Position numbers and translations under genes: made by a program
Notes under the pieces: generated by a model
Told to the model about the DNA's origin: nothing
What the model saw: the letters and a program-made list of their open reading frames with translations, nothing else
The model's database searches: none
Shown here: in pieces, positions 4,241 to 31,680 of the stretch
Layout: every line of letters begins with the position of its first letter
How positions within the stretch are numbered: position 1 is the first letter of the stretch
Source of the DNA: an uncultured delta proteobacterium
GTDB taxonomy: Bacteria > Desulfobacterota > Zymogenia > Zymogenales > Zymogenaceae
Assembly: GCA_963792965.1 (NCBI GenBank)
Contig: CAWBYW010000037.1
Span: 1 to 43,531 of the forward strand
Direction of reading: 5' to 3'
Length of the DNA stretch: 43,531 nt

Positions 4241-4298
4241 ACTACTGCACTAAATATAGCGTGAAGGTAATCGGCCGGTCCGGAGTATCTCGTCGCGG

Positions 4299-10500: not shown

Positions 10501-10508
10501 GTCATAAG

Positions 10509-10642
10509 TCACCCCACAAAAGCTGCGCTTTTGCGGGGGCCCCAATGACACCCCACGAAAACTTCGTTTTCGCGGGGACCCCATCAGAGAGGAGAGAGCG
10601 AGAACGAGTATAAGCCCGTAGGGGCGGCATATATGCCGCCCG
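10509..10642 (+). repeat. Composite intergenic repeat copy 2
   Basis: tcaccccacaaaagctgcgcttttgcgggggcccc (10509-10543), acaccccacgaaaacttcgttttcgcggggacccc (10548-10582), purine tract gagaggagagagcgagaacgag, REP gtaggggcggcatatatgccgcccg (10618-10642). Confidence 0.85.
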
Positions 10643-10684
10643 CAGACACTTTGTCCGTCTGACTTCTGCGAAGGAAAAGAACTA

Positions 10685-10891
10685 ATGCCGACCGTGATCA
10701 TCAACGCCGAGATATGCAAAGGATGTGAGCTCTGCGTGGAGGCCTGCCCGAGGAAGATCATCGTCATCGGGACAACCCCCAACGGCCAGGGCTATTTTAC
10801 CGCCGTCTACGAGGACACGGCAAAGAAGTGCACCGGGTGCGCGCTCTGCGCCGAGATGTGCCCCGATATCGCCATAGAGGTGTTCAAGTGA
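10685..10891 (+). CDS. 2x[4Fe-4S] ferredoxin, delta subunit of 2-oxoacid:ferredoxin oxidoreductase
   Basis: CKGCELCVEACP and CTGCALCAEMCP; overlaps the start of the alpha subunit. Confidence 0.93.
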   Translation: MPTVIINAEICKGCELCVEACPRKIIVIGTTPNGQGYFTAVYEDTAKKCTGCALCAEMCPDIAIEVFK

Positions 10892-11976
10892 GCGACCAAC
10901 AAGATAAAGCCCACAGCGTCGCGCGGGACCTGATCAAGGGCAACGAGGCGATCGCTATGGCGGCGCTCGACGCCGGCCTGAAGTTCTACTTCGGCTACCC
11001 CATCACGCCCCAGAACGACATTCCCGAATACCTCGCGTTTCACCTGCCCAAGGCCGGGGGGTCATTCATCCAGGCCGAGAGCGAGATCGCCTCGATCAAC
11101 ATGGTGCTCGGGGCCGCCGCCACGGGAAAGCGCGCCATGACCTCATCGTCGAGCCCGGGCATCTCGCTCATGCAGGAGGGGATTTCTTATATGGCCGGCA
11201 GCGAGATCCCGGGGGTGATCGTCAATATCTCCCGCAGCGGCCCGGGGCTCGGCGGCATTTCCCCCTCGCAGGGCGACTACTTCCAGGCGACCCGCGGCGG
11301 GGGGCACGGGGACTACCGGGTCCTCGTCCTTGCGCCCAACTCCGTCCAGGAGATGTATGACCTCACGATTTTGGCCTTCGACCTTGCCGATACGTACCGA
11401 AACCCCGTCATGATCCTCGGAGACTCGATACTCGGCCAGATCAAGGAGCCCATGGTACGCCATAAAGAGATAGCGGCCCCACGCGACAAATCGTGGGCGC
11501 TCACCGGCGCGGACGGAAGGCCGCCGCAGAAGCTGAAATCCCTCTACCTGGCCGAGGGCGAGCTGACCGTTCACAACTGGAAGCTCAAGGAAAAATACGA
11601 CCGCATGTCTGCCGACGTCCGGTATGACACATACCTCGTCGACGACGCCAGGCTCATCGTCTCGGCCTTCGGCTCCGTCTCCCGGATCGTCAGGACCTCG
11701 ATTGACCGGGTCAGGGAAAAGGGAATGAAGGTGGGGCTCTTCCGCCCCATCACGCTCTTCCCGTTCCCGCACGATCCGATCATGGAGCTCTCCGGACGGG
11801 TCAAGGAGTTCTTCGTCGTGGAGCTCAACACCGGCCAGATGGTGGAGGACGTGAAGCTCTCGGCCATGGGGGACGCGCGGGTCGATTTCTTCGGCAACCC
11901 CCCGGGCTCGATCCCGTCGCCGGCCCAGCTCGAGGAGCTGATAGAGGAACGATATAAGAAAATCGGGACTTCATGA
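10888..11976 (+). CDS. vorB: 2-oxoacid:ferredoxin oxidoreductase alpha subunit (VorB-like)
   Basis: KGNEAIA, FGYPITPQ, QAESEIA, TSSSSPGISL, RGGGHGDY; GTG start at 10888 overlaps the ferredoxin stop. Confidence 0.9.
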   Translation: MSDQQDKAHSVARDLIKGNEAIAMAALDAGLKFYFGYPITPQNDIPEYLAFHLPKAGGSFIQAESEIASINMVLGAAATGKRAMTSSSSPGISLMQEGISYMAGSEIPGVIVNISRSGPGLGGISPSQGDYFQATRGGGHGDYRVLVLAPNSVQEMYDLTILAFDLADTYRNPVMILGDSILGQIKEPMVRHKEIAAPRDKSWALTGADGRPPQKLKSLYLAEGELTVHNWKLKEKYDRMSADVRYDTYLVDDARLIVSAFGSVSRIVRTSIDRVREKGMKVGLFRPITLFPFPHDPIMELSGRVKEFFVVELNTGQMVEDVKLSAMGDARVDFFGNPPGSIPSPAQLEELIEERYKKIGTS

Positions 11977-11990
11977 TGTCCCGGTGAGAG

Positions 11991-12017
11991 AAACCCCGGC
12001 ACTGCCGGGGTTTTTTT
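11991..12017 (+). terminator. Rho-independent terminator after vorB
   Basis: aaaccccggc-act-gccggggttt followed by a T run. Confidence 0.85.
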
Positions 12018-12060
12018 GTGGGCGCGGCAGGCGCCCGGCCGCCCGCACCGCCGCATTGTG

Positions 12061-12089
12061 TTGACTAATGCGCCAATACCGATTACAAT
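12061..12089 (+). promoter_or_regulatory. Putative sigma70 promoter for the CoA-transferase-GNAT cluster
   Basis: TTGACT-N17-TACAAT, ~50 bp upstream of the ATG at 12142. Confidence 0.65.
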
Positions 12090-12141
12090 AAAAAACAATA
12101 CGCACTGTTTTCACGCCAATTCCCAGACCAGGGGGCCGACC

Positions 12142-14019
12142 ATGATGAACCTCCAATCCCTCAAGAAGACCTATCCCGACAAGTTTACGACTGAGGACGA
12201 GGTATTTTCGCACATTCACCGGGGCGACCGGATATTCATCAGCACGGGGTGCGGGGAGCCGCAGTATTTAGTTGGTGCGCTGATCAAGTACGTTGAGTCT
12301 CACCCGAAGGCGGTGTTTGACGCGGAGGTCTTTCACGTCTGGACGCTGGGGGTGGCGCCGTACACGGACGAGAAGTTCAAGTACAATTTTCGGCACAACT
12401 CATTTTTCATTGGGAACGACACGCGGGGCGCGGTGAACCGGGGGGGCGCGGACTACACGCCGATCTTTCTTTCGCAGGTGCCGGACCTTTTGGACCGGCG
12501 GATGATCCCGGTGGACGTGGCGCTGATCCAGACGTCGCTTCCGGACGCGCACGGGTACGTGAGCCTGGGGGTGAGCGTGGATATCGTGAAGGCGGCGGTC
12601 CAGAACGCGACGACGGTGATTGCGCAGGTGAACGCGCGGATGCCGCGTGTTCACGGGGACGGGTTCATCCACCTTGACATCATCGATTTCATCATCGCGC
12701 ACGACGAGGAGCTGTTGGAGTACGAGGACACGACGCCGGACGACATCGCGCAGGCGATCGGGCGGTACGTGTCGCGGATTGTGCGGGACGGGGACACGAT
12801 CCAGGTGGGGTACGGGAGCCTGCCGAACGCGATCATAGCGAACCTTGAGAACAAGGAGCACCTCGGGGTGCACACGGAGCTCTTCACGGACGGGATCGCG
12901 CAGCTGATGAAGAAGGGAGTGATCGACAACTCGAAGAAGACCGTTGACCGGGGGAAGACCGTGACGACGTTTTGCATGGGGAGGCGACCGACGTACGACT
13001 TCATTGACGACAACCCGTCGATCGAGTTTCGGACGGTGGACTACACGAACGATCCTCTGGTGATATCGCAGCACCGGAACATGGTGGCGATCAACAGCGC
13101 GCTGGAGGTGGACCTGACGGGACAGGCGACGGCGGAGTCGATCGGGACGACGTTTTACAGCGGGATCGGGGGGCAGGCGGACTTCATGCGGGGCGCGGTG
13201 CTGTCCCCGGGTGGCAAGACGATATTAGCGCTGGCGTCGACGGCGGAGGGGGGGAAGGTATCGCGTATCGTGCCGTTCTTGAGGGAGGGCGAGGGGGTGA
13301 CGCTGAACCGGGGTGACATCCACTACGTGGTGACGGAGTACGGGATCGCGTATCTCCACGGCAAGAACATCCGGGAGCGCGCCATGGAGCTGATCGCGAT
13401 CGCGCATCCGGACTTCCGGTCGGGGCTGGTGGAGGAGGCCAGGAAGAATAACCTGATCTATAAGGATCAGGCGTTCATACCGGGGAAGGAGGGGGAGTAT
13501 CCGGAGCACCTGGAGATCTACCGGACGACGAAGGACGGGATGACGATCTTCCTGAGGCCGGTGAAGATCAGCGACGAGCCCCTCCTCAAAGACTTCTTCT
13601 ACGACCTCTCGGATAAGAGCCTGTATCGGCGGTTCTTCAGCCTGCGCAAAGACATGCCCCACGAGCGGCTCCAGAGCTACGTCGTCATCGACTACACCAA
13701 GGAGATCGTGATCCTTGCCTCGATGACGAGGGATGAAAAAGAGATCATCACGGGGATGGGACAGTATATCATAGAGGAGAACTCGCTCACGGCCGAGGCG
13801 GCGTTCCTGGTCAAGGATGAGTACCAGAACCGCGGCATCGGGACGGAGATCCTCCAGTACCTTACCTATCTCGCCAAGCGGCGTGGCCTCACGGGGTTCA
13901 CGGCGGAGGTCCTCATTGAGAACAAGCCCATGATACACGTCTTCGAGAAGACCGGGTTCGACATCGAGAAACGCGGTGCCGAGGGGGTCTACGAGATGAA
14001 GATGAGTTTCATCGATTAG
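12142..14019 (+). CDS. Acetyl-CoA hydrolase/transferase fused to C-terminal GNAT acetyltransferase (copy 1)
   Basis: GCGEPQ, SLGVSVD, TIQVGYG, HLGVHTELF, DLTGQATAES, SGIGGQADF; GNAT motif A YQNRGIG; start at ATG 12142. Confidence 0.92.
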   Translation: MMNLQSLKKTYPDKFTTEDEVFSHIHRGDRIFISTGCGEPQYLVGALIKYVESHPKAVFDAEVFHVWTLGVAPYTDEKFKYNFRHNSFFIGNDTRGAVNRGGADYTPIFLSQVPDLLDRRMIPVDVALIQTSLPDAHGYVSLGVSVDIVKAAVQNATTVIAQVNARMPRVHGDGFIHLDIIDFIIAHDEELLEYEDTTPDDIAQAIGRYVSRIVRDGDTIQVGYGSLPNAIIANLENKEHLGVHTELFTDGIAQLMKKGVIDNSKKTVDRGKTVTTFCMGRRPTYDFIDDNPSIEFRTVDYTNDPLVISQHRNMVAINSALEVDLTGQATAESIGTTFYSGIGGQADFMRGAVLSPGGKTILALASTAEGGKVSRIVPFLREGEGVTLNRGDIHYVVTEYGIAYLHGKNIRERAMELIAIAHPDFRSGLVEEARKNNLIYKDQAFIPGKEGEYPEHLEIYRTTKDGMTIFLRPVKISDEPLLKDFFYDLSDKSLYRRFFSLRKDMPHERLQSYVVIDYTKEIVILASMTRDEKEIITGMGQYIIEENSLTAEAAFLVKDEYQNRGIGTEILQYLTYLAKRRGLTGFTAEVLIENKPMIHVFEKTGFDIEKRGAEGVYEMKMSFID

Positions 14020-15520
14020 GACGGCCATGGTTTTTAGCGGCGCAAAGATTATCGGAAAATTACAGTCGGCCTATCCCGACAAGTTTACGACTGAGGACGA
14101 GGTATTTTCGCACATTCACCGGGGCGACCGGATATTCATCAGCACGGGGTGCGGGGAGCCGCAGTATTTAGTTGGTGCGCTGATCAAGTACGTTGAGTCT
14201 CACCCGAAGGCGGTGTTTGACGCGGAGGTCTTTCACGTCTGGACGCTGGGGGTGGCGCCGTACACGGACGAGAAGTTCAAGTACAATTTTCGGCACAACT
14301 CATTTTTCATTGGGAACGACACGCGGGGCGCGGTGAACCGGGGGGGCGCGGACTACACGCCGATCTTTCTTTCGCAGGTGCCGGACCTTTTGGACCGGCG
14401 GATGATCCCGGTGGACGTGGCGCTGATCCAGACGTCGCTTCCGGACGCGCACGGGTACGTGAGCCTGGGGGTGAGCGTGGATATCGTGAAGGCGGCGGTC
14501 CAGAACGCGACGACGGTGATTGCGCAGGTGAACGCGCGGATGCCGCGTGTTCACGGGGACGGGTTCATCCACCTTGACATCATCGATTTCATCATCGCGC
14601 ACGACGAGGAGCTGTTGGAGTACGAGGACACGACGCCGGACGACATCGCGCAGGCGATCGGGCGGTACGTGTCGCGGATTGTGCGGGACGGGGACACGAT
14701 CCAGGTGGGGTACGGGAGCCTGCCGAACGCGATCATAGCGAACCTTGAGAACAAGGAGCACCTCGGGGTGCACACGGAGCTCTTCACGGACGGGATCGCG
14801 CAGCTGATGAAGAAGGGAGTGATCGACAACTCGAAGAAGACCGTTGACCGGGGGAAGACCGTGACGACGTTTTGCATGGGGAGGCGACCGACGTACGACT
14901 TCATTGACGACAACCCGTCGATCGAGTTTCGGACGGTGGACTACACGAACGATCCTTTGGTGATATCGCAGCACCGGAACATGGTGGCGATCAACAGCGC
15001 GCTGGAGGTGGACCTGACGGGACAGGCGACGGCGGAGTCGATCGGGACGACGTTTTACAGCGGGATCGGGGGGCAGGCGGACTTCATGCGGGGCGCGGTG
15101 CTGTCCCCGGGTGGCAAGACGATATTAGCGCTGGCGTCGACGGCGGAGGGGGGGAAGGTATCGCGTATCGTGCCGTTCTTGAGGGAAGGCGAGGGGGTGA
15201 CGCTGAACCGGGGTGACATCCACTACGTGGTGACGGAGTACGGGATCGCGTATCTCCACGGCAAGAACATCCGGGAGCGCGCCATGGAGCTGATCGCGAT
15301 CGCGCATCCGGACTTCCGGTCGGGGCTGGTGGAGGAGGCCAGGAAGAATAACCTGATCTATAAGGATCAGGCGTTCATACCGGGGAAGGAGGGGGAGTAT
15401 CCGGAGCACCTGGAGATCTACCGGACGACGAAGGACGGGATGACGATCTTCCTGAGGCCGGTGAAGATCAGCGACGAGCCCCTCCTCAAAGACTTCTTCT
15501 ATGACCTCTCGGATAAGAGC
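12170..15520 (+). repeat. ~1451-bp near-identical direct repeat (12170-13620 vs 14070-15520)
   Basis: Offset of exactly 1900 bp; by eye only three synonymous differences (13057/14957, 13287/15187, 13602/15502). Confidence 0.93.
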
Positions 15521-15919
15521 ATCTACCGCCGATTCTTCATCAACCTGATCTCCATGCCGCACGAGAAGCTGCAGAAATTCGTGGTGATCGACCACACGAG
15601 GGAGGCCGTCATCATGGCCGTCGTCGAGGAGGGAGGACACGAGCAGCTTGTCGGCATCGGCCAGTACGTCGTCGACCAGCTCTCCCTCACGGCGGAGGTG
15701 GCCTTCATGGTCCGCGACATCTACCAGAACCGCGGCGTCGGGACGGAGCTCTTGAGCTACCTGATGTACCTTGCCAAAAAACAGGGACTCTCGGGCTTCA
15801 CCGCTGAGGTGTTGCCGGAGAACACCCCGATGCTCCATATCTTCGAGGAAAACGGCTTCGAGCTGACCAGAAAGAGCCTCGGGGGCGTTCACATCCTCAA
15901 GCACAACTTTACCCCGTAG
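14027..15919 (+). CDS. Acetyl-CoA hydrolase/transferase-GNAT fusion (copy 2)
   Basis: Protein identical to copy 1 over the hydrolase domain; distinct GNAT C-terminus (YQNRGVG). Confidence 0.92.
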   Translation: MVFSGAKIIGKLQSAYPDKFTTEDEVFSHIHRGDRIFISTGCGEPQYLVGALIKYVESHPKAVFDAEVFHVWTLGVAPYTDEKFKYNFRHNSFFIGNDTRGAVNRGGADYTPIFLSQVPDLLDRRMIPVDVALIQTSLPDAHGYVSLGVSVDIVKAAVQNATTVIAQVNARMPRVHGDGFIHLDIIDFIIAHDEELLEYEDTTPDDIAQAIGRYVSRIVRDGDTIQVGYGSLPNAIIANLENKEHLGVHTELFTDGIAQLMKKGVIDNSKKTVDRGKTVTTFCMGRRPTYDFIDDNPSIEFRTVDYTNDPLVISQHRNMVAINSALEVDLTGQATAESIGTTFYSGIGGQADFMRGAVLSPGGKTILALASTAEGGKVSRIVPFLREGEGVTLNRGDIHYVVTEYGIAYLHGKNIRERAMELIAIAHPDFRSGLVEEARKNNLIYKDQAFIPGKEGEYPEHLEIYRTTKDGMTIFLRPVKISDEPLLKDFFYDLSDKSIYRRFFINLISMPHEKLQKFVVIDHTREAVIMAVVEEGGHEQLVGIGQYVVDQLSLTAEVAFMVRDIYQNRGVGTELLSYLMYLAKKQGLSGFTAEVLPENTPMLHIFEENGFELTRKSLGGVHILKHNFTP

Positions 15920-15943
15920 CGGCCTTGTCGTCAGGGTTTGACC

Positions 15944-17816
15944 GTGAGCAGAGCCGGTGAGATAAAGAAGAAGTACGCCGATAAGCTCCGGCCCATCGAC
16001 GAGGTCTTCTCCCACGTCCATCGCGGGGACCGGATCTTCATCGGCGGCGGGTGCGGAGAGCCCCAGTATCTGGTGTCGTCCTTTATCGAGCATGCGCGCT
16101 CTCACCCCTCGTCCGTTTCACGAAATCACGTCTATTGCCTCTATTGTTTCGGCGTTACGCCCCGCACAGAGGACCCGTTTGACGAGAACTTCCGTCGGAA
16201 TATCTTTTTCATCGGGCGCGACAGCCGCGATTGCGTCGCCAAAGCGGAGCGCGGACTACAGTCCGATCTTCCTCTCCCAACTGCCCACGTATCTTAAAAG
16301 CCGCATGGTCCCGTTTGACTGCGCCGTCATCCAGGTATCACCCCCCGACGACTACGGGTACGTGAGCTTAGGTGTCAGCGTCGACGTCACCAAGGCGGCG
16401 GTGAAGAATGCGCGGCTCGTCATCGCCCAGATGAACGCCCGGGTGCCGAGGGTGCACGGCGACGGGTTTGTCCACATCAATGATATCGATTTCGTCATCC
16501 CGCACGACGAGGAGCTGCTCGAGTACCAGGAGAAGACGCCGGACGACATCGCCCGCGCGATCGGAAGGTACGTGTCGCAGATCGTCCGTGACGGCGACAC
16601 GATCCAGGTGGGGTACGGAAGCCTGCCCGACGCCATCGTCTCGCATCTCGGCGAAAAGCGGCACCTCGGGGTGCATACGGAGCTCTTGACCGACGGGCTG
16701 GTGTCTCTGATCAAGAGGGGGGTCGTGGACAACACCGCGAAAGGAATTGACCCCGAAAAGAGCGTCGTGAGCTTCTGTATGGGCACCCGCCCCACCTACG
16801 ACTATGTCCACGAAAACCCCACGATCGACTTCAGGACGAGCGACTATACCAATAATCCGCTCGTGATCGCCCGTCTCCGCAATATGACCGCCATCAACAC
16901 GGCCCTTGCCGTCGACCTGACGGGGCAGGCCTCGGCGGAGTCGATCGGTGATTCGTTTTACAGCGGGATCGGGGGGCTGGCCGATTTCATGCGGGGGGCG
17001 GTGCTCTCGCGGGGCGGCAGGACGATCCTGGCGCTGGCCTCCACGGCGGAAAGCGGCGCGGTTTCGCGCATCGTCCCGTTTTTGCCCGAGGGGGCGGGGG
17101 TGACGCTGAACCGTGGGGACGTCCACTACGTCGTGACGGAGTACGGGATCGCCTACCTTGCCGGAAAGAACATCCGGGAGCGGGCGATGGAGCTCATCGG
17201 GATCGCCCATCCTGATTTTCGCTCGCGGCTCGTGGAAGAGGCGCGGCAAAGGAGCCTGGTCTACCGGGACCAGGCCTTCATCACGGGAGAGGCGGGGCAG
17301 TACCCCGAGCAGCTCGAGCGATACCGGACGACGAGGACGGGGTTGACGATCCTCTTCCGGCCGGTGAAGATCAGCGACGAGCCCCTCCTCAAGGACTTCT
17401 TCTATAACCTCTCGCCGGAAAGCCTCTACAAGCGCTTCTTTTCCCGCCGCCAGGACATGCCCCACGAGATCCTCCAGCGCTTTTCGGTCATCGACTATAC
17501 GAAGGAAATGATCGTCCTGATAACGATCAGACAAGATGAAAAAGAGATCGTCATCGGGATGGGCCAGTACAAGGTCAACGAGGATACGCGCACGGCCGAG
17601 GCCGCCATGGTCATCCGCGACGATTTCCAGAACCAGGGGGTCGGGACGGAGCTCGCTAACCACCTCGTCTTCCTGGCCAGGCGCCAGGGGCTGGTCGCGT
17701 TTACCGCCGACGTCTTCGAGGACAACTCCCCCATGCTCAGGATCTTCGAGAAGTCCGGGTTCGACATGGAGAGGAAAAGCGAGTATGGGGTCTTCAGGCT
17801 GAGGATGAATTTCTAA
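15944..17816 (+). CDS. Acetyl-CoA hydrolase/transferase-GNAT fusion (copy 3, diverged), +1 frameshift near 16241-16243
   Basis: N-terminal part in ORF 15938..16297 (DEVFSHVHRGDRIF, GCGEPQ); remainder in 16092..17816; deleting one A gives CVAKRSADYSPIF, aligning with AVNRGGADYTPIF. Confidence 0.88.
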
Positions 17817-19568: not shown

Positions 19569-19632
19569 GACTTGCCGGGAGGATACGTCCTCCCCCGTAT
19601 CAGGCAGAAACTATCAGACCAAGGAGACACCC

Positions 19633-20301
19633 ATGGCTGTCAAGCTTGTCACCATCAAAGAAGATATCCTCAAAGACAACAAGGAGATGAGCGCGCTCTT
19701 GAAGAAGCGGTTTGCCGCATCAAAAACGCTCGTCGTCAACCTCATGTCGTCGCCGGGGGCCGGCAAGACCTCCACGATCCTCAGGACGCTGGAAAAGCTC
19801 GGAAAAGACGTCAAGGCCGCCGTCGTCGAGGGGGACATCACCTCGACCGTCGACGCGGACAAGATGGACGCGCGCGGCATCCCCGTCGTCCAGATCAACA
19901 CCGGCGGCGCCTGCCATATCGATTCGGCGATGGTCGCCGAGGCAGTGGCCGACTTCGACACGACGGGGATGGACCTGATGATCGTGGAGAACGTCGGCAA
20001 CCTGGTGTGCCCCGCCGAGTTCGAGGTCGGCGAGGACCTCCGGGTCATGATCCTCTCGGTCCCCGAGGGTCACGACAAGCCCCAGAAGTACCCCCTCATG
20101 TTCATCGAGACGCAGGCCTGCATCCTCAACAAGATCGATCTCTTGCCCTATACCGATTTCGACATGGACGCGTTCACCAAAACGGTCTCGACCCTCAATC
20201 CGAAGAGCACCATCTTCCCGGTCTCGATGAAAACGGGAGAGGGCATCGACGCGTGGGCGGCGTGGCTCAAGGCCCGGATAGACGCGAAGAAGAAGAATTA
20301 A
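19633..20301 (+). CDS. hypB: Hydrogenase nickel incorporation GTPase HypB
   Basis: MSSPGAGKT, EGD, QINTGGACH, ENVGNLVCPA, PEGHDKPQKYP and NKIDL motifs. Confidence 0.96.
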   Translation: MAVKLVTIKEDILKDNKEMSALLKKRFAASKTLVVNLMSSPGAGKTSTILRTLEKLGKDVKAAVVEGDITSTVDADKMDARGIPVVQINTGGACHIDSAMVAEAVADFDTTGMDLMIVENVGNLVCPAEFEVGEDLRVMILSVPEGHDKPQKYPLMFIETQACILNKIDLLPYTDFDMDAFTKTVSTLNPKSTIFPVSMKTGEGIDAWAAWLKARIDAKKKN

Positions 20302-20381
20302 CCATCGGGCAGCGGCCGCCCGCCCGCGGGGCCGCGACCGGATTTCGATTGACCAACACGCCGAAAGGAAACAACCCACCC

Positions 20382-21864
20382 ATGGACGCTCATTCCCGCG
20401 CGCAGCTCGACCGGATTATCCATCCCCGGTCGCTGGCGGTTATCGGGGCCTCGGCCAGCCCCGGCAAATTCGGATGGCTTTATCTGAAGTCGCTCGTTCA
20501 GGTCGGATTTTCGGGGAACCTCTATCCTATCAACAAGGGGGTCGACTCGATCCTCGGCCACAAGGCCTATCCCACCCTGTCGTCCCTCCCGGAGATCCCG
20601 GACATGGTCGTCATCATGATCCCGGCGAGATTCGTCCCCGAGGCGCTCGAAGAGACGCTGGCGGTCGGGGCCCCGGGCGCGGTAGTAATTACCGCCGGGT
20701 TCGGGGAAGACGGCCGGGACGGGAAGGCGCTCGAGGAGCGCGTTCGGGAGATCGCCCGCCGGGGTATTCGCGTCATCGGTCCCAACTGCTTCGGGGTCTA
20801 TTCGCCTAAGGCAGGGGTCACGGTTCTGCCCGGTTCCGGATTTTCCCGGGAGTCGGGGCCGGTCGGCTTTTTCGCGCAGAGCGGCGGGCTCACGGCCGAC
20901 CTCGGCCAGATCGCCATCGGGAGAGGGGTGCGTTTCTCGGCCATGGTCAGCTACGGCAACGCGGTCGACGTCAACGAGCTGGACATGTTGGACTACTTCG
21001 CCCACGACGCCTCAACCTCGATTATCTCGGCCTACGTCGAGGGCGTCTCGGACGGCCCGCGTTTCCTGAAGATGCTCGAAGAAGTCACCCGGAAGAAGCC
21101 GGTGATCATCTGGAAGGGGGGAACGTCGGCCACCGGCGCCCGCATGGTCATGAGCCATACCGGGTCAATGGGCGGGCAGGCGGCGACCTGGGAGGCGGTC
21201 TTCAGACAGACGGGCGTCGTGCGGGTCAGCGGCCTGGTGGACCTGATCGATACCCTGGCTGGCGTTCTGTCACCTCTATCCGCGGGGGGGCAGGCGAATT
21301 GCGGTGATGGGTGGGGGAGGCGCGCTGGGCGTGGAGGCGTCCGACCTGGTGGATGGGCTCGGGCTGTCAATGCCGGCATTCGATAAGGGTGTCCAGGAGG
21401 AGATCGAAAAGCAACTGCCCGAGTTCGGCAAGAGCGCACGGAACCCGGTGGATACGGGAAACCCCCTCGTCGGGGCGGATCAGCTGGTCGAGATCATGCG
21501 GATCATCGCCCGAACGGGCCTCGTCGACGTGATCTTTGTCCTGCAGCTCCTCTTTCACTCCCAGCTGCTCATGCGGCGTGTGGCCGACCAGGCCGGCACG
21601 GAGCTTTCGGCCTTTGCGAGCTACCCGAAGCTTGCCGAGGGAGCGGGCGAGATAAGTGCGTCGGGGACCCCGGTGGTCGCGGTGCTGCCCCGGACTTCGA
21701 TCTCGACGAGCGACGAGGACCTCGAGCTTGAGGCGGAGCTCCGCCGGGCCGAGTCCGCCTTCCAGAAGGCCGGGTGTACGGTCTTCCCGACAATCGAGCG
21801 GGCCGTCAGATCATTGGCGAAAGTAGTCGCCTACCAGGAATACCAAAAGACGAAAAACTCATAG
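20382..21864 (+). CDS. Acyl-CoA synthetase (NDP-forming) alpha-subunit-like CoA-binding protein (copy 1), +1 frameshift near 21257
   Basis: HPRSLAVIGAS, GPNCFG, QSGG, SYGNAVD and phospho-His motif SHTGS; the C-terminal half (NPVD) is in ORF 21304..21864; no ATP-grasp domain. Confidence 0.87.
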
Positions 21865-21921
21865 CATACCGGAAACATCCCCAGCCTTGGTTTCCCCGAG
21901 CCGGTAGGGACGTTACGCACG

Positions 21922-23449
21922 ATGAAGAACGATGAATACGAGATACTGGACCGGATCGTCCATCCCCAATCCGTGGCGCTGGTCGGGGCGTCCCACAACC
22001 CGGGGAAATTCGGCTGGCTCTACCTCAAAGTCCTCAAGGACATCGGCTTTTCGGGGAGGCTCTACCCGATCAACGACCACGTCGACGAGATCATCGGCTT
22101 TAAGACCTACCCGTCGCTCTCAAACCTGCCGGAGGTGCCGGACCTCATGGTCGTCACGGTGCCGGCGCGGTTCGTGGTCGACTACCTCGAACAAGCCCTT
22201 TCGCTGGGCGTCCCCGGCGCGGTGGTGATGTCCTCCGGGTTCGCGGAGCTGGACGATGAGGGAAGGGCGATGCAACAGCACATCGCCGAGATCGCGGCCC
22301 GGGGCATGCGGATCATCGGCCCCAACTGCTTCGGCATCTATTCGCCGAAGGCCGGCATCTCGCTGATCCCCGGCGCGGGGTTCTCGCGGGAGTCGGGGCC
22401 GGTCGGATTTTTCGCCCAGAGCGGCGGGATGACCGCCGACCTCGGCCAGATGGCGATGAGCCGGGGCATCAGGTTCTCGGCGATGATCAGCTACGGCAAC
22501 GCCGTGGACGTGGACGAGATCACGCTCCTCGACTATTTCGCGTCCGACCCCACTACCCGCTTCATCGCCTCCTATATCGAGGGGGTCAAGGACGGGAGGC
22601 GCTTCTTCGAGCACGTCAATGATGTGGCAAAGAAAAAGCCCGTCGTCATCTGGAAAGCGGGGATGACCGAGGCCGGGCACCGGGCGGCGCAGAGCCACAC
22701 CGGCTCGATGGGGGGAAGCCGCGCGATATGGGAGAGCTTCTTCTCCCAGACGGGGGTGATCCCCGTCAGGGGGCTTGAGGAGATGCTGGACGTCTTGATG
22801 ATGCTCTCCTACGTTTACCCCCGCGGGGGGAGGAACATCGCCATAGTTGGAGGAGGCGGGGGACTTGCGGTGGAGGCCTCCGACCTTGCCGAGCTCTCGG
22901 GGCTCGGCCTGCCCCAGTTTCCAACAGATGTCGCCCAGCAGATCGCAGCGCTCCTCCAGGGAGCGGGGTCGGCCCCGACTAATCCGGTCGACGCGGGAAA
23001 CCCGGTCGTGCATCCGAGCGTCCTGGTCAAGATCATGAAGATGGCGGCGGCGCTGCCCCGAGATAGACACACTGATCGTGGTGCAGTTTCTCTTTCATAT
23101 CTACGTCCTCTTTCGGCGGATGTCTGACAGAAAAGACATCCCGCTCTCGACCTTTGCCACCTATCCGGCGCTGGCCGAGGGGATCAGGGAGCTCTGCAAC
23201 GAGTTCGGGAAGCCCGTCATCGGGGTTTTCCCCGAGACGGCGACCTCGGAGTCTCCCGAGGAGGTAGAGCTCGAGCTTGAGTGGCGAAAAGCACGCCATG
23301 CCCTGTTGAACGCGGGCGCGCCGGTCTATCCATCGATGGAGCGGGCCCTTGCGGCACTTTCCAAGATGGCGCGCTACCTTGAATACCTCAAGTCCCATGG
23401 GATTGTGCCTGAGCCGATCGGCGACCGGTGCGTGGTGCCGCAACACTGA
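21922..23449 (+). CDS. Acyl-CoA synthetase (NDP-forming) alpha-subunit-like CoA-binding protein (copy 2), +1 frameshift near 23056-23059
   Basis: Paralog of the preceding gene with the same motifs (GPNCFG, SHTGS, NPVD); removing one C from CCCC joins it to ORF 23078..23449. Confidence 0.87.
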
Positions 23450-27479: not shown

Positions 27480-27616
27480 ACAAACAGTAAAAACAGGTCT
27501 ATAATCTCACCATACCACCGGCAAGCGATGCTGTGCCGGTGCTCTTGTATCACAGACGGGGCGGTGGTCCGGCTCGGCTGATGATGTCTATACCAACGCG
27601 TGGAGAAAGAAATCCC

Positions 27617-28285
27617 GTGAAAAAAGAGATGCACGAAAAGGTCAGGCGCAGCGGCAGCCGCGAATATATCGAGGCGATCGTCTTTGCCCTGATCGTCGCC
27701 TTGTGCGTGATGACGTTTGTGGTCCAGTCTTTCGAGATCCCGTCGGGGTCCATGATTCCCACCCTGCTGTTGGGGGATCGGGTGCTGGTCAATAAATTCA
27801 TTTTCGGCACGAGGATTCCCCTTTCCGATGTCAAAATATGTGCGCTCAGGGAGCCGAGACGGGGAGAGATCGTGGTCTTTGAGCCCCCGGAGGGCTTTGA
27901 ATCGCCCCTCGGGCGAAACATCCACCTCATCAAGAGGGTCATCGGCATTCCCGGCGATACAATCCAGATTGTCAACAAAAAACTCTTCGTCAACGGGAAA
28001 GAGTTTGTGGTAAAGAACGCCCACTGGGACGATCCCGGCATCATCGATCGTGGGGTCTCGGTGCGGGACAACTTCGGCCCGATCACCGTTCCCCCTCATT
28101 CCTATTTCATGATGGGGGATAACCGGGATAACAGCTACGATTCCCGGTTCTGGGGATTCGTTCCCGAACCGGAGATCACGGGCAAGATGATCGTAATCTA
28201 CTGGTCCTGGGACATCACAACCACCAATCTGCTGGAGCGAATCAAGGCCATCCGATGGGGACGGATCGGGATGGTCGCACCGTAA
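27617..28285 (+). CDS. lepB: Signal peptidase I (paralog 1)
   Basis: PSGSMIPTL (catalytic Ser), LIKRVIG (catalytic Lys), MGDNRDNSYDSRFWG; GTG start at 27617 after GGAGA. Confidence 0.92.
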   Translation: MKKEMHEKVRRSGSREYIEAIVFALIVALCVMTFVVQSFEIPSGSMIPTLLLGDRVLVNKFIFGTRIPLSDVKICALREPRRGEIVVFEPPEGFESPLGRNIHLIKRVIGIPGDTIQIVNKKLFVNGKEFVVKNAHWDDPGIIDRGVSVRDNFGPITVPPHSYFMMGDNRDNSYDSRFWGFVPEPEITGKMIVIYWSWDITTTNLLERIKAIRWGRIGMVAP

Positions 28286-28342
28286 GGGCAGCTGCTTGTG
28301 TACCCCCGGTGATTGCCCAGCACAGAAGTCGGAGAGAGGATA

Positions 28343-28999
28343 ATGGAAAAAGAGACACGACACGCCGCGCGTCGCAGCACGACCAGGGAATATATCGAGG
28401 CGATCGTCTTTGCGCTGGTGCTGGCCCTCATCATCAAGACCTTTTTCATCCAGGCCTTCAAGATACCCTCGGGCTCGATGATCCCGACGTTACTCAGGGG
28501 CGACCAGATCCTCGTCAATAAATTCATCTACGGCACGCGGGTCCCGCTTTCCGACGTAAAGTTCCTCGAGCTCAGGGAGCCGCGGCGGGGGGACCTCGTC
28601 GTCTTCGAGTACCCCGAAGACCGCCGCATCCACTACATCAAGCGGCTCATCGGGGTTCCGGGCGATACTATCGAGATCGTCAATAAGGTCGTCTTTGTTA
28701 ACGGCGTAAAGTACGTGGTGAAGGACGCCCAGTTCGAGGACCCGGAGATGCTCCCCTCGAGCGTGTCGGTCCGGGATAATTTCGGGCCGGTCGTCGTTCC
28801 CCCCCACTCGTACTTCATGATGGGCGATAACCGGGATAACAGCAGGGACTCGCGCTTCTGGGGATTTGTGGACAGCTCGGAGATGGTGGGGAACGCCGTG
28901 GTGATCTACTGGTCGTGGGACATCGAGTCAGGGGGGCTGATCCAGCGGATCGGGAACATCCGGTGGGACAGGCTCGGGATGATCCTCCTGCATAAATAA
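28343..28999 (+). CDS. lepB: Signal peptidase I (paralog 2)
   Basis: PSGSMIPTL, YIKRLIG, MGDNRDNSRDSRFWG. Confidence 0.94.
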   Translation: MEKETRHAARRSTTREYIEAIVFALVLALIIKTFFIQAFKIPSGSMIPTLLRGDQILVNKFIYGTRVPLSDVKFLELREPRRGDLVVFEYPEDRRIHYIKRLIGVPGDTIEIVNKVVFVNGVKYVVKDAQFEDPEMLPSSVSVRDNFGPVVVPPHSYFMMGDNRDNSRDSRFWGFVDSSEMVGNAVVIYWSWDIESGGLIQRIGNIRWDRLGMILLHK

Positions 29000-29006
29000 G
29001 GCGTCG

Positions 29007-29555
29007 ATGAAACGGGATACCCCCTTCGTCGTTTTGCTATCGGTTCTTGCCTTTCTTTTTCTTGCCTACGTCTGGCTCTTCGACAACGTAAAGATGGAAT
29101 CGACCGCGATGGAGCCGCACATCCACGCTGGCGACTACCTGCTGGTGTGGCGCGCCGCCTACGCGATCAGGGCGCCCCTTGTGGGGGATATCGCGAGAAC
29201 GGGAGCGCCCGCGCGGGGCGACGTGGTGCTGGTGGAGAAAGACTCGGGTGACTCCGAGTATGGACGGGTCACCGCGGTGCTCAGGGTGGTGGGCCTGCCG
29301 GGGGAGGTCGTCGCGATCACGGATAAGAAAGTATCCATCGACGGACTGCCGCTCACGGAGAAGTACGCGACCTTTTCCGACGCGCGGGTCTATCCCGAGG
29401 GGCTCTCCGCCCGGGACAACATGGCGGCGGTCGTCGTCCCCGACGACGGTTATTTCGTGATGGGAGACCGGCGGGATATTTCCACGGACAGCAGATTTTT
29501 CGGGACGGTGAAAAGAGACGAGATCATCGGGAAGGTGGTGTGGGTCTATTGGTAG
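29007..29555 (+). CDS. Signal peptidase I-like protein lacking the catalytic Ser/Lys dyad
   Basis: Aligns with the neighbours (GD.LLV, RGDVV, RVVGLPGE, MGDRRDISTDSRFFG), but SGSM is replaced by STAM and IKR by VLR. Confidence 0.82.
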   Translation: MKRDTPFVVLLSVLAFLFLAYVWLFDNVKMESTAMEPHIHAGDYLLVWRAAYAIRAPLVGDIARTGAPARGDVVLVEKDSGDSEYGRVTAVLRVVGLPGEVVAITDKKVSIDGLPLTEKYATFSDARVYPEGLSARDNMAAVVVPDDGYFVMGDRRDISTDSRFFGTVKRDEIIGKVVWVYW

Positions 29556-29656
29556 GGGAGGGGACGTAGATGACGCACGAAATCGGCTTCCCTCTCCCTC
29601 TCTTTCATCGGTACCCCCGGTTAGTACCCGTCATTGCGAGCGTGTCCCTCTTCATC

Positions 29657-29684
29657 GGGGCCCCCACGAAGCATGCTTCGGTGA
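29657..29684 (-). repeat. Degenerate copy of the TCACCCC-hairpin-GGGGGCCCC unit
   Basis: ggggcccccacgaagcatgcttcggtga, preceded by a pyrimidine tract (purine tract on the minus strand). Confidence 0.6.
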
Positions 29685-29712
29685 GGCTACCTGCCCGTAG
29701 ACGCAGGGTTGT

Positions 29713-29769
29713 TATACGGTAAATTAAGTTTGTAGAGTTTAGAACTTAGTAAACTTAATTTGGCGTATA
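29713..29769. repeat. 57-bp imperfect palindrome, left att-like site
   Basis: TATACG-GT-AAATTAAGTTT-GTAG-AGTT-tag-AACT-TAGT-AAACTTAATTT-GG-CGTATA. Confidence 0.85.
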
Positions 29770-29861
29770 ATGGACTCATATTAATCCGATAGAAATGACC
29801 CAAGACAGGACTTAACCTCGTAGCCTTGACCCGTAGACTTCAGGAAAAATAGGCACAAATT

Positions 29862-30998
29862 ATGTACTTTCAGTTTCTTCCTTGGTGCCAAATTGATAGA
29901 GAATATCGAGTTGGGGATATAACCTTCTTACCGTTTACCTTTCACGCTGAAAATGATTACTTGGGTAAAAAGGAATTCAAACGAATTCAGAAGGTCTTGA
30001 AGTCATATAGATCAAATGATGATGGTAAACGGGTAAATGAAGCCGTAATTCTTAGATTTAAAGACTCTCCGATACTCTCAGACCTTTCAAAAGAAGCACT
30101 CGAAATATCTTATGAAATGAATCAAATCGCGTGCTTTTCCGCTTTATCGTCAAGGGACTTTTTTAAATATGGAGGTAACTATTGTTGTTCTGATAATTTT
30201 AGACTTGAAGTCAATTCATTTGAGGACATAAACTCAAACTATACTGCATTACAGACTAGGAGACGCGAAGGTACACACTACGATGGTCGATTAATGACTC
30301 GGATATATTTAACTAATCCAGAGAGCGTAAAGCTCAATAGAATAAAACTGGATGAAAAGCTCATTCGTTCTTTGGTGGAGTTTCGCTCAAGTGAGAATTT
30401 AGATGAATGGACTCACTTGAAAAACTCCATCTTATGTTACAACCAGGCAAATACCGATAACCCCTCAATATCTTATCAAGTGGAATGGATACTCCTTTGT
30501 AGTGCTATCGAGGAAATAATACAACACGGTTATAAAGCAAAAGAGGTTTCTTGGGAATTCCATGACCTGCTAATACCAGGGAAAAATGTGAATCTTTGTT
30601 TTTCAAGGAGGAAGAAAGAAATCTTAGGGATCTTCCAGCATGATAGTAGGAGCAGCGTTCGCCATATTTGGATAAAGGAGTTTATAAAAGCCAGGGGGAG
30701 TTATGCGCATGGTACGCTTGACGTTCGGCATAGGTTAGTATGGAAGCCCTTAGAACATCTAATACTAGCCTCAATAGCGTTTCCTTTAATCGCTAAAATA
30801 ATGCTACTAAAAAAAGGCCTTTATGAATTGTCAGAATATGACCTGAAGCAGATTAGTTGCTTCGAAGAATTCGCCGATGGTGATTTTCTATCCGATTTAA
30901 AATTATGGTCTAACCTGCTGAATTTTGAAGGATTGGAAATACTTCGAATCAAAATGGAGAAACTTTTTAGGGAAGGCTTATCGAAGAAGAAAAGATAA
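29862..30998 (+). CDS. AT-rich protein with C-terminal HEPN-like domain (ApeA-like candidate defence RNase)
   Basis: LLCSAIEEII helix followed by the RxxxxH motif RGSYAH; markedly AT-rich relative to the flanks. Confidence 0.72.
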   Translation: MYFQFLPWCQIDREYRVGDITFLPFTFHAENDYLGKKEFKRIQKVLKSYRSNDDGKRVNEAVILRFKDSPILSDLSKEALEISYEMNQIACFSALSSRDFFKYGGNYCCSDNFRLEVNSFEDINSNYTALQTRRREGTHYDGRLMTRIYLTNPESVKLNRIKLDEKLIRSLVEFRSSENLDEWTHLKNSILCYNQANTDNPSISYQVEWILLCSAIEEIIQHGYKAKEVSWEFHDLLIPGKNVNLCFSRRKKEILGIFQHDSRSSVRHIWIKEFIKARGSYAHGTLDVRHRLVWKPLEHLILASIAFPLIAKIMLLKKGLYELSEYDLKQISCFEEFADGDFLSDLKLWSNLLNFEGLEILRIKMEKLFREGLSKKKR

Positions 30999-31053
30999 CG
31001 CAGCATTAACACCTACAAGAATCACATTGTAAGCACCCGATTTCCCCCTCAGA

Positions 31054-31112
31054 TATACCGCCAAATTAAGTTTACTAAGTTTAGAACTTTTCAAATCTAA
31101 TTTGGCGATATA
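31054..31112. repeat. 59-bp imperfect palindrome, right att-like site
   Basis: TATAC-CGCCAAATTAAGTTTACTAAGTT-tag-AACTTTTCAAATCTAATTTGGCG-ATATA; 31059-31081 is the exact reverse complement of 29743-29765. Confidence 0.85.
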
Positions 31113-31126
31113 CGGTGACAGTCAGG

Positions 31127-31199
31127 GGATTGCCGCGCCCCTTCGGGGCTCGCAATGACAGAAGAAACGAAAAGACCCACCCGCTTGCTCGCAATGACG
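31127..31199 (-). repeat. Two GTCATTGCGAG-family repeats (inverted relative to the copy at 29629)
   Basis: ggattgccgcgccccttcggggctcgcaatgac (31127-31159) and gctcgcaatgacg (31187-31199), the latter a perfect inverse of 29629-29641. Confidence 0.75.
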
Positions 31200-31302
31200 T
31201 GGCTATTCCGGGGGAAAATATAGTCCGAAAAATGCGTTGACATCCGGGGTGAAAAATGATATTAAATATAAGAATATAAGCAGTATATAGAGGGATTATC
31301 TA

Positions 31303-31680
31303 ATGATCGGCATGATGAAATTCGTCACCAGTAGGAACGGCGCGAGCAGGATCAAGACGCTCATCACCCTGGCCATCATCGCCGCCGTTATCTATACCGC
31401 GATCAAGTTCATTCCCCCCTACGTCGATTACCTCAAGCTGACGAACGCCGCCTACGACACCATGAATTCCGTCGGCGACAAGGGTGATGACGTGATCATG
31501 CAGCGGTTTATGAGGATGGCAAAGGACGTCAAGCCGGACCTGGCACCGGAAGACGTCACGATTGAGCGGGGTGAATCGGGACCGGCGACGCTCCTGATCG
31601 ACTATTCGGTGACCGTCGTCCTGATCAAGGATAAACTCGAAAAGGTCCTCAATTTTCACATTGCGGAAAAAGCTTCGTAA
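31303..31680 (+). CDS. DUF4845-like membrane-anchored protein
   Basis: Pilin-like N-terminus (RNGASRIKTLITLAIIAAVIY), KFIPPYVDY and C-terminal IDYSVTV...LNF; this family is commonly adjacent to lepB. Confidence 0.68.
   Translation: MIGMMKFVTSRNGASRIKTLITLAIIAAVIYTAIKFIPPYVDYLKLTNAAYDTMNSVGDKGDDVIMQRFMRMAKDVKPDLAPEDVTIERGESGPATLLIDYSVTVVLIKDKLEKVLNFHIAEKAS

What the first reader, a model, noticed from the sequence alone, without database searches (positions are those of the whole stretch)
29713..31112. HEPN-gene cassette flanked by half-swapped 57/59-bp palindromes (attL/attR-like geometry)
Seen: one AT-rich gene is bracketed by two TATA-ended imperfect palindromes, each centred on a TAG loop and sharing the 12-bp direct core AGTTTAGAACTT (29736-29747, 31078-31089). 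The two inner arms, next to the cargo, are a perfect 23-bp inverted pair (29743-29765 vs 31059-31081), while the outer arms are more degenerate. Crossover at the core would excise a 1342-bp circle whose junction is a perfect palindrome (CGCCAAATTAAGTTTACTAAGTT-TAG-AACTTAGTAAACTTAATTTGGCG) and leave one imperfect empty site, as expected if a circle integrated into a chromosomal site. The sites lack the GTTRRRY/RYYYAAC ends of integron attC and are not 28-bp dif sites. Inference: a recombinase-free, trans-mobilised defence-gene cassette. An alternative is a relic of TA-targeting IS630-type MITE ends.
Basis: partly seen in the sequence, partly recalled or inferred. Interest (0 to 1): 0.85.

Follow-up and report, generated by a model that had tools for sequence, protein, structure and literature searches.

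The report
Foreign defence-like gene between twin palindromes
A single AT-rich gene for a probable RNA-cutting defence protein sits in a GC-rich bacterial chromosome between two related 57/59-base palindromes whose halves look swapped, as after an insertion, but no second example, empty site or enzyme could be found, so whether it is mobile remains unproven.

Summary
Two imperfect palindromes (29713-29769 and 31054-31112) bracket one ORF (29862-30998). They share a 12-nt direct core. Their inner arms are a perfect 23-nt inverted pair, while the other arm pairs match at 17-18 of 23. They are the only such palindromes in the 43.5-kb window, and GC falls from about 0.59 to 0.37 exactly between their outer ends.

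The cargo belongs to an uncharacterised family (749 representative clusters) with an invariant Rx4H motif. Of 22 homologue loci, 11 lie directly upstream of a DUF1156 methyltransferase gene in helicase-methylase-ATPase defence operons. "HEPN-like defence gene" is therefore plausible, though Pfam, PADLOC, NCBIfam and fold searches do not confirm it.

The mobility claim is not shown:
- None of the 21 homologue loci with both flanks has a comparable bracket.
- A stringent pattern found no copy in 185,579 species genomes.
- Plasmid and phage collections gave no DNA match.
- The scanned ORFs of the contig include no recombinase or transposase.
- The source genome and metagenomes could not be searched.

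Best reading (about 0.45): a non-autonomous single-gene cassette with perfect inverted ends that entered the centre of a related palindrome, moved by an enzyme encoded elsewhere. An 8-nt direct repeat at the outer edges supports a rival one-piece insertion. Interest is modest.

The parts
29713..29769 (.). Left imperfect palindrome (57 nt): outer arm 29713-29739, TAG centre 29740-29742, inner arm 29743-29769
   Evidence: GC 0.26 for both arms
29736..29747 (+). Left copy of the 12-nt direct core shared by both sites
   Evidence: longest exact direct match between L and R; spacing 1342
29743..29765 (.). Left inner arm, perfect 23-nt inverted partner of 31059-31081
29770..29861 (+). 92-nt spacer upstream of the ORF; no sigma-70-like promoter called on the + strand
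   Evidence: GC 0.41
29862..30998 (+). Cargo ORF, 378 aa (P0001): N-terminal beta-rich domain plus C-terminal helical domain with Rx4H (R278-H283); probable HEPN-like RNase of an uncharacterised family
   Evidence: GC 0.371
30999..31053 (+). 55-nt spacer downstream of the ORF
   Evidence: GC 0.47
31054..31112 (.). Right imperfect palindrome (59 nt): inner arm 31054-31081, TAG centre 31082-31084, outer arm 31085-31112
31078..31089 (+). Right copy of the 12-nt direct core
31059..31081 (.). Right inner arm, perfect inverted partner of 29743-29765
29713..29720 (+). Left copy of the 8-nt direct repeat TATACGGT at the outer edge of the AT-rich block (possible target duplication; its first 4 nt are also the arm end)
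31109..31116 (+). Right copy of the 8-nt direct repeat TATACGGT, spanning the end of R and 4 nt of flank
29690..29707 (+). Terminator-like GC hairpin of the upstream lepB genes, 5 nt before the left palindrome (host context)
29614..29641 (+). Host REP-like repeat copy; inverted partner at 31187-31214 (28 nt, 75% complementary), so the block lies near the middle of a host inverted pair
31187..31214 (-). Host REP-like repeat copy, inverted partner of 29614-29641; a further 12-nt core copy lies at 31148-31159

Best explanation
A horizontally acquired, non-autonomous single-gene cassette. The mobile unit is the gene with its two perfect inverted ends (inner arms; about 29743-31081, 1342 nt including one core copy). 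It entered the centre of an older, related but degenerate palindrome (the outer arms), producing two hybrid sites that share a 12-nt core in direct orientation. The enzyme that did this is encoded elsewhere. It may be a site-specific recombinase acting at the core, or a transposase acting on the inverted ends with a 3-nt TAG duplication; one copy cannot tell these apart. The cargo is a probable HEPN-type RNase, working as a stand-alone abortive-infection or defence effector, whose relatives usually sit as accessory genes in helicase-methyltransferase-ATPase defence operons. Shown: the geometry, its non-randomness, the foreign composition, the family's conserved Rx4H motif and its defence-operon context. 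Inferred: that the unit moved by these sites, the direction (integration), the enzyme, and the RNase and defence activity.
For: Geometry: (inner arms 23 of 23 against 17-18 of 23 for the other pairs; 12-nt direct core; TAG on the same strand in both sites). Non-randomness. Sharp compositional block: GC 0.369 against 0.585. No integrase, transposase or resolvase family among the 42 window ORFs scanned, and the cargo region holds one ORF of 50 aa or more on the + strand. The arms are conserved in two blocks, the 4-5 nt next to the centre and a distal AAATTA..TTT block, separated by a variable 4-nt patch. From general knowledge, this fits both IS ends and recombinase core sites. An assembly chimera is unlikely because the only exact direct repeat between the sites is 12 nt. 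Cargo: 749 representative clusters; R278 and H283 invariant in 86 of 86; confident models (pLDDT 96 and 95); HEPN_Apea in 3 of 86 relatives (best E 0.0012); an atlas neighbour cluster with 11% HEPN_Apea. In 11 of 22 homologue loci the gene is directly upstream of a DUF1156 gene; 8 of 22 have a SNF2+NOV_C helicase upstream; DUF499 was found in 3. Passages of PMC12839542 describe this system as recruiting HEPN and Schlafen RNases as auxiliary effectors. Homologue ORFs have lower GC than their flanks in 21 of 22 loci, by at least 0.05 in 17.
Against: There is no second instance. No further arm or site occurs in the window. The stringent 26-position pattern gave 0 matches in 185,579 species genomes. 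The 1426-nt block gave no blastn match in plasmids or phages. No site-like sequence occurs in 23 fetched loci (nhmmer, best E 4.5). Of 21 homologue loci with both flanks, 0 have a comparable inverted bracket. Only L011 has a strong flanking repeat, and that is a direct duplication of coding sequence; L012 is marginal. The outer arms are as AT-rich as the cargo (0.25-0.26 against flanks of 0.61 and 0.47), so the supposed chromosomal site would itself be foreign. The 8-nt repeat TATACGGT at the outer edges fits a one-piece insertion better. Arms of 23-28 nt are longer than those of the simple recombinase sites I recall. P0001 has no hit at E <= 0.01 in Pfam, PADLOC or NCBIfam, and Foldseek found nothing at E <= 0.001.
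Confidence: 0.45

Rival explanations
1. One-piece insertion. The whole 1.4-kb AT-rich block, both palindromes included, arrived in a single event (transposition or integration at an 8-nt target), and the two palindromes are subterminal structures of that element. The host contributed only TATACGGT.
For: An 8-nt direct repeat lies exactly at the two outer edges (29713-29720 and 31109-31116). All four arms share the cargo's low GC and the shift to host GC coincides with the outer ends. This removes the need for a pre-existing AT-rich site in a GC-rich spacer.
Against: Four of the eight repeated bases (TATA) are the conserved end of every arm, so only CGGT is extra (about 1 in 256, found post hoc). 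The block's termini are not aligned inverted repeats once the 8 nt are removed (read). It does not explain why only the inner arms are identical. No other copy was found.
Confidence: 0.2
2. Passive passengers. The palindromes are hairpin elements of the AT-rich donor genome (REP-like repeats, terminators or operator sites) that flanked the gene there and were co-transferred on a DNA fragment. They played no part in the insertion.
For: They share the cargo's composition. Both fold as stable hairpins on either strand. There is no sign of a cognate enzyme or of other copies in the host contig. The host spacer is itself rich in other repeats, so it is a permissive site.
Against: The block's compositional boundaries fall exactly at the outer palindrome ends. 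The perfect inner pair against diverged outer arms is unexplained. Neither site has a T-run (one search lists neither as terminator-like). No homologue locus shows such hairpins beside the gene.
Confidence: 0.15
3. Two solitary miniature transposable elements (for example TA-duplicating IS630-type MITEs of about 53 nt) happen to flank an independently acquired gene.
For: Each palindrome can formally be read as TA + inverted-repeat element + TA.
Against: MITEs are normally multi-copy, yet there are 0 further copies in 43.5 kb and 0 in the species-genome collection with the stringent pattern. It does not explain the inner-arm identity or the exact coincidence with the low-GC block.
Confidence: 0.05
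4. A degenerate integron-type array (attC sites without integrase) or a Xer/dif-type module.
For: The site length of 57-59 nt lies in the attC size range (recalled). The sites form hairpins. Defence genes, including a HEPN family, occur in integron cassettes (PMC3710099 table row; abstract starts in the listing). dif modules are recombinase-free cassettes between Xer sites (abstract starts in the listing).
Against: There are no RYYYAAC / GTTRRRY boxes at the ends, and the shared core is central rather than terminal. The sites are twice the length of dif sites. There is no GC-skew turn or change of gene orientation here. No integrase family was found in the window.
Confidence: 0.05
5. Assembly artefact: a fragment of another organism was spliced into this contig at shared repeats.
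For: The window is a whole metagenome-type contig (its length equals the 'longest contig' of its proteins), and the composition contrast is strong.
Against: The exact sequence shared in direct orientation is only 12 nt, far below usual assembly word sizes (general knowledge). Both junctions are structured in the same non-trivial way.
Confidence: 0.03

Closest known systems
Mobile insertion cassettes (MICs) and other IS-derived non-autonomous elements
   Same: Passenger gene without a transposase, bounded by inverted repeats (here 23 nt perfect) and presumed to be moved in trans. A short direct repeat (TAG) flanks the inner unit. The concept appears in the papers listed (listing and abstract starts only).
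   Different: No cognate IS and no second copy are known. The ends abut mirror-image degenerate arms tip to tip, which an ordinary MIC insertion does not produce. The duplication length cannot be read because 12 nt are shared.
Xer-dependent elements: dif modules of Acinetobacter plasmids and IMEX
   Same: Recombinase-free cargo (often toxin-antitoxin or resistance genes) between two partly palindromic sites. Crossover in the centre of the site gives half-swapped hybrid sites. The host enzyme acts in trans (abstract starts; mechanism recalled).
   Different: Sites here are 57-59 nt with 23-28-nt arms and a 3-nt asymmetric centre, not about 28 nt. Similarity to dif was not tested with any model. 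The locus is chromosomal, away from any skew turn. No further modules were found.
Integron gene cassettes / attC
   Same: A single promoterless-looking defence-type gene next to an imperfect palindrome of attC-like length that can fold as a hairpin. HEPN genes are known as integron cassettes (PMC3710099).
   Different: The conserved R boxes are absent. The shared core is central, so the sites are half-swapped, which attC x attC exchange near the site's end does not give (recalled mechanism). No integrase or attI lies in 43.5 kb.
attL/attR of serine integrases
   Same: Imperfect palindromes of about 40-60 nt with a central crossover, giving hybrid left and right sites (recalled).
   Different: Those elements carry their own integrase, and their attP and attB halves are usually dissimilar. 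Here the cargo has no recombinase and the halves are about 75% alike.
ApeA and other stand-alone HEPN defence RNases
   Same: A single protein with an N-terminal mostly-beta domain and a C-terminal helical domain carrying Rx4H. It is embedded in restriction-modification-like operons (PMC3710099 table). ApeA is an abortive-infection tRNA anticodon nuclease (abstract of 10.64898/2026.01.26.701840).
   Different: P0001 does not match the HEPN_Apea or PADLOC models. Only 3 of 86 relatives match weakly. No solved structure matches. This is a separate, unnamed family.

Membership tests
   Read on both strands: the ends are TATAC(C)G... / ...CG(A)TATA, and no such boxes lie at or just outside the ends.
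Integron cassette / attC site | Integron integrase and attI nearby, or an array of attC sites | tested here: not met
   No integrase family among the 42 ORFs scanned. Only two sites in 43.5 kb. The contig end limits this test.
Integron cassette / attC site | Score with an attC covariance model (folded strand with extrahelical bases) | not testable with these tools
   No attC model is held. Rfam gave nothing. Hairpins form on both strands.
Xer / dif module or IMEX | Site of about 28-31 nt: two 11-nt arms round a 6-8-nt spacer (recalled) | tested here: not met
   The sites are 57 and 59 nt with 23-28-nt arms round a 3-nt asymmetric centre inside a 12-nt shared core.
Xer / dif module or IMEX | Chromosomal dif lies at the replication terminus (skew turn) | tested here: not met
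   Cumulative GC skew rises steadily through 26-35 kb, and the genes on both sides are on the + strand.
Xer / dif module or IMEX | Sequence similarity to the lineage's dif site | not tested
   No dif model or source genome was available. A resemblance of part of the arm to a Bacillus dif arm is recalled only.
MIC / MITE (IS-derived non-autonomous element) | Terminal inverted repeats and no transposase inside | tested here: met
   A 23-nt perfect inverted pair. The single cargo ORF has no transposase family.
MIC / MITE (IS-derived non-autonomous element) | Target-site duplication of defined length | tested here: inconclusive
   TAG, or up to 12 nt, is repeated next to the inner unit, and TATACGGT at the outer edges. 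The true length cannot be read from one copy.
MIC / MITE (IS-derived non-autonomous element) | Further copies and a cognate IS with the same ends | tested here: not met
   0 further copies in the window, in species genomes, or in plasmids and phages. The source genome was not searchable.
HEPN superfamily | Rx4-6H motif | tested here: met
   R278 and H283 (RGSYAH) are invariant in 86 of 86 aligned members.
HEPN superfamily | All-alpha HEPN fold | tested here: inconclusive
   The C-terminal domain is predicted helical with pLDDT 95-96. Foldseek against PDB found no match at E <= 0.001. HEPN-containing rows (RNase L, IRE1, Csm6, 7ae8_C, 1ylm_A) appear only at E 0.6-1.2.
ApeA (HEPN_Apea, PF18739; PADLOC ApeA) | Match to the family model | tested here: not met
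   P0001 has no hit. 3 of 86 relatives match at E >= 0.0012, without reference to the curated cut-off. An atlas neighbour cluster carries 11% HEPN_Apea.
Serine-integrase attL/attR | Integrase gene carried by the element | tested here: not met
   There is one ORF in the cargo, and it is not a recombinase.

The most novel reading that the evidence does not exclude
The two sites are the attL and attR of an undescribed capture system. A host-encoded recombinase of an uncultured deltaproteobacterium-like lineage recognises about 58-nt palindromes with a 12-nt asymmetric core and uses them to take up and release single defence genes as about 1.3-kb circles. This would be functionally like integron cassettes or dif modules, but with sites unrelated to attC or dif.
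Probability: 0.12. Interest if true: 0.7.

Novelty: new variant of a known kind. Interest (0 to 1): 0.35.

Why it matters
If the sites are real recombination or transposition ends, this would add a new site type to the short list of ways in which single defence genes travel without their own enzyme (integron cassettes, dif modules, MICs). It would also show how an accessory effector of helicase-methylase-ATPase operons can become a free-standing cassette. Independently of mobility, the cargo belongs to a sizeable unnamed protein family (749 clusters at 50% identity) with a conserved Rx4H motif and a recurrent slot in BREX-related operons, which is a clear candidate for functional testing. As it stands, it is one instance with no replication, so it is a lead rather than a discovery.

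Tried and rejected
- DNA search of the 1426-nt block in plasmids and phages: no match.
- Stringent palindrome pattern in genome contigs: 0 matches. The pattern demands 26 fixed positions, so diverged copies would be missed.
- nhmmer profile of the two sites against the window and 23 loci: only the two sites themselves.
- Rfam at gathering and E <= 1: nothing.
- Profile of 86 family members against PDB sequences at E <= 10: nothing.
- Foldseek of the full-length and C-terminal models against PDB: nothing at E <= 0.001.
- PADLOC and NCBIfam: nothing.
- tblastn in phages: nothing. In plasmids: 5 distant hits at 20-25% identity. The pMOL28 copy lies next to an integrase-domain gene but has no flanking bracket.
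- The search for related loci with the 86-row alignment failed for lack of a conserved stretch. A 26-row alignment worked.
- My first palindrome routine and the repeat finder with seed 8 were too strict to list even L and R, so I replaced them with local alignment and a fixed-arm count.
- An indirect empty-site test through the neighbours' relatives. The closest DUF4845-like relative (91%) is on a 4125-nt contig and the closest lepB3 relative (85%) on a 4456-nt contig, so they do not share a contig length. No P0001 relative above 44% identity exists in the protein collection.
- Rejected: dif at the terminus, attC and assembly chimera.
- Not used: complex prediction, and the viral fold library.
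Full report
**Observation**

Reading 29500-31400 and the repeat tables confirms the description.
- The left site is 29713-29769 (57 nt) and the right site is 31054-31112 (59 nt).
- Each is an imperfect palindrome round a TAG, and every arm ends in TATA.
- The longest exact direct match between the sites is the 12-nt core (29736-29747 and 31078-31089, 1342 nt apart).
- The longest exact inverted match is the 23-nt inner-arm pair.
- Over 23 nt the inner arms match 23 of 23, whereas the other arm pairs match 17-18 of 23.

These features are not chance.
- The inner arm occurs twice at up to 3 mismatches, against 0 expected.
- No other arm lies within 7 mismatches anywhere in the window.
- L and R are the only places in 43.5 kb with at least 20 of 27 complementary arm positions, against 0 in 5 shuffles.
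- Alignment of upstream against downstream flank scores 24 and 29, against at most 14 in shuffles.
- Both sites fold as hairpins on either strand.
- GC is 0.369 for 29713-31112 and 0.25-0.29 for all four arms, against 0.611 for the left flank and 0.585 for the rest of the window.
- I add one feature: the 8-nt direct repeat TATACGGT at 29713-29720 and 31109-31116.

**Cargo**

The only sizeable ORF is 29862-30998 (378 aa, P0001).
- It has no Pfam match at E <= 0.01, and at E <= 10 only Imm15 at 0.08. It has no PADLOC or NCBIfam match.
- It has many relatives: 749 representative clusters at E <= 0.001, 110 of them at E <= 1e-30. The closest reach only 34-40% identity over at least 89% of the query, or 44% over half of it.
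- In an 86-row alignment the invariant residues are P7, W8, R98, D199, W270, R278, H283 and H299. This includes an Rx4H motif.
- Three of the 86 relatives touch HEPN_Apea (best E 0.0012). An atlas neighbour cluster carries that family in 11% of its members.
- AlphaFold models are confident (pLDDT 96 for the whole protein, 95 for residues 165-378). They show an N-terminal beta-rich domain and a helical C-terminal domain.
- Foldseek against PDB gave nothing at E <= 0.001. HEPN-containing entries appear only at E 0.6-1.2. A profile search of PDB sequences found nothing.
- "HEPN-like" is therefore probable, not proven.

**What the relatives' loci say**

The second genome scan fetched 22 loci from MAGs of Nitrospira, Desulfobaccales, Thermodesulfobacteriota, Planctomycetota, Acidobacteriota, Gammaproteobacteria and others. 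I scanned 97 of the 141 neighbouring ORFs listed.
- In 11 of 22 loci the homologue lies directly upstream of a DUF1156 gene.
- In 8 of 22 a SNF2+NOV_C helicase lies upstream.
- DUF499 was found in 3 loci.
- This is the helicase-methyltransferase-ATPase system called Hma or type-1 BREX-related. According to passages of PMC12839542, it recruits HEPN and Schlafen RNases as auxiliary effectors. PMC3710099 (table rows) likewise places ApeA-type HEPN genes inside restriction-modification operons.
- Other loci put the gene beside toxin-antitoxin or other conflict genes: TacA-GNAT, MazE, DUF4145, M78-DUF4411, Schlafen AlbA_2, IS110 and IS3.
- The homologue ORF has lower GC than its flanks in 21 of 22 loci, by at least 0.05 in 17; L006 is higher. 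Some ORF limits are approximate (L008, L016, L019, L021, L023).
- A defence role is thus well supported by context. ApeA itself is an abortive-infection tRNA nuclease (abstract).

**Is the bracket a property of the gene family or of a dispersed site?**

Neither could be shown.
- Of the 21 loci with both flanks (L008 lacks one), none has an inverted bracket like the window's.
- Only L011 has a strong flanking repeat (score 46 against at most 16 in shuffles). It is a 108-nt direct duplication overlapping the 5' end of the downstream DUF1156 ORF. L012 is marginal (17 and 17.5 against 16 and 14.5), and three others (L015, L020, L023) exceed their controls by at most 1.5.
- A profile of the sites finds nothing in these loci or elsewhere in the window.
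- A pattern of the 26 positions conserved in both sites has 0 matches in one genome of each of 185,579 species. This also shows that the source genome is not in that collection. Diverged copies would escape this pattern.
- Plasmid and phage collections have no DNA match.
- The 42 window ORFs scanned include no integrase, transposase or resolvase family. Ten ORFs have no family at the thresholds used.

**Empty site**

- The neighbours' closest relatives are 91% and 90% identical (DUF4845-like) and 85% identical (lepB3).
- Named relatives are only about 60-68% identical. Hits from the Deltaproteobacteria / Candidatus Zymogen- lineage place the host roughly.
- Contig lengths shared between the two hit lists (14430 and 32538) suggest that lepB-DUF4845 synteny is conserved.
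- No relative of P0001 above 44% identity exists. The cassette is therefore probably absent from relatives, but the sequence of their spacer stayed unseen.

**Mechanism**

Two readings give the same sequence for the inner unit. Both need an enzyme encoded elsewhere, and together they form my best explanation (0.45).
- Conservative recombination at the 12-nt core, between a circle whose site is a perfect palindrome and a related imperfect site.
- Transposition of a unit with perfect 23-27-nt inverted ends into the centre of such a site, with a TAG duplication.

Three observations count against it.
- The presumed chromosomal half-sites are as AT-rich as the cargo.
- The 8-nt repeat sits at the outer edges.
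- There is no replication of the arrangement anywhere.

The main rival (0.2) is a one-piece insertion of the whole block. Passive donor hairpins (0.15), solitary MITEs (0.05), attC or dif sites (0.05) and an assembly artefact (0.03) follow. The host spacer is itself repeat-rich. A 12-nt REP-like motif occurs 5 times in the window against 0.22 expected, with an inverted pair about 71 and 74 nt either side of the block. A terminator-like hairpin ends 5 nt before the left site.

**Comparison and novelty**

- The arrangement works like a dif module or IMEX (central crossover, hybrid sites, host enzyme) or like a mobile insertion cassette.
- It fails the tested defining features of attC (core boxes), dif (size, terminus) and ApeA (model match).
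- For MIC or MITE membership it meets the inverted-ends criterion only.
- I rate it a new variant of a known kind, seen once.
- For some searches I saw search listings and abstract starts only. I saw the abstract and outline for 10.64898/2026.01.26.701840 and 10.64898/2026.09.23.753747, and passages for PMC3710099 and PMC12839542. Supplements were closed and might list this family among BREX-related auxiliary effectors.

**Verdict**

The mobility claim remains open, and the decisive data (source genome, reads, close relatives) were out of reach.

Noticed in passing
window 1550-4250: A second low-GC island (0.44 against 0.585) carries three minus-strand genes: an unknown 237-aa protein (1602-2315), a PIN_4 protein (2303-3208) and a DUF3644 protein (3257-4240). 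PMC3710099's table links a HEPN family to DUF3644. No flanking repeats were found.
   Followed up: partly
window 1158, 1499, 29630 (+); 31148, 31187 (-); also 1247-1318 and 29651-29687: Two host REP-like repeat families occupy GC-rich intergenic DNA. One is a 12-nt motif with 5 copies against 0.22 expected; the other is a GC-rich hairpin unit. Copies lie next to both low-GC islands, and an inverted pair (29614-29641 and 31187-31214) straddles the cassette about 71 and 74 nt away.
   Followed up: partly
window 27533-29555: Three tandem signal peptidase I (Peptidase_S26) paralogues lie directly upstream of the cassette. A terminator-like hairpin at 29690-29707 ends 5 nt before the left palindrome.
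   Followed up: no
window 12016-17816: Three tandem genes each fuse acetyl-CoA hydrolase/transferase to a GNAT domain. They are followed by two CoA-ligase-like genes (19572-23127).
   Followed up: no
L002-L005, L010-L014, L019, L021 (match at about 10001-11100 in the full-length loci): Relatives of the cargo occupy a recurrent slot between a SNF2+NOV_C helicase gene and a DUF1156 methyltransferase gene (DUF499 ATPase further on). In some loci the stretch between the helicase gene and the homologue also holds Fic, NYN or Schlafen-AlbA_2 genes, so this looks like a variable accessory-effector position.
   Followed up: partly
L011 9558-9665 and 11196-11303: A 108-nt direct repeat (alignment score 46 against at most 16 in shuffles) flanks the homologue. 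The downstream copy overlaps the 5' end of the DUF1156 ORF. This suggests insertion or replacement by recombination within that gene.
   Followed up: no
L017 4368-5513: A lone homologue (GC 0.39 against 0.54) sits between housekeeping-type genes (amino-acid kinase-PUA, amidohydrolase). Like the window's copy it is an orphan, but it has no flanking palindromes.
   Followed up: partly
proteins P0169 / P0170 and P0189: In the closest relatives, the two genes that flank the cassette were found on different short contigs (4125 or 1168 nt against 4456 nt). This could mean an assembly break in this spacer or simply different samples; it was not resolved.
   Followed up: no
L001 (NC_006525.1, pMOL28) 3983-5119: A distant homologue (25% identity) on a conjugative Cupriavidus metallidurans plasmid lies about 600 nt downstream of an integrase-domain gene. 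It has no flanking bracket.
   Followed up: partly
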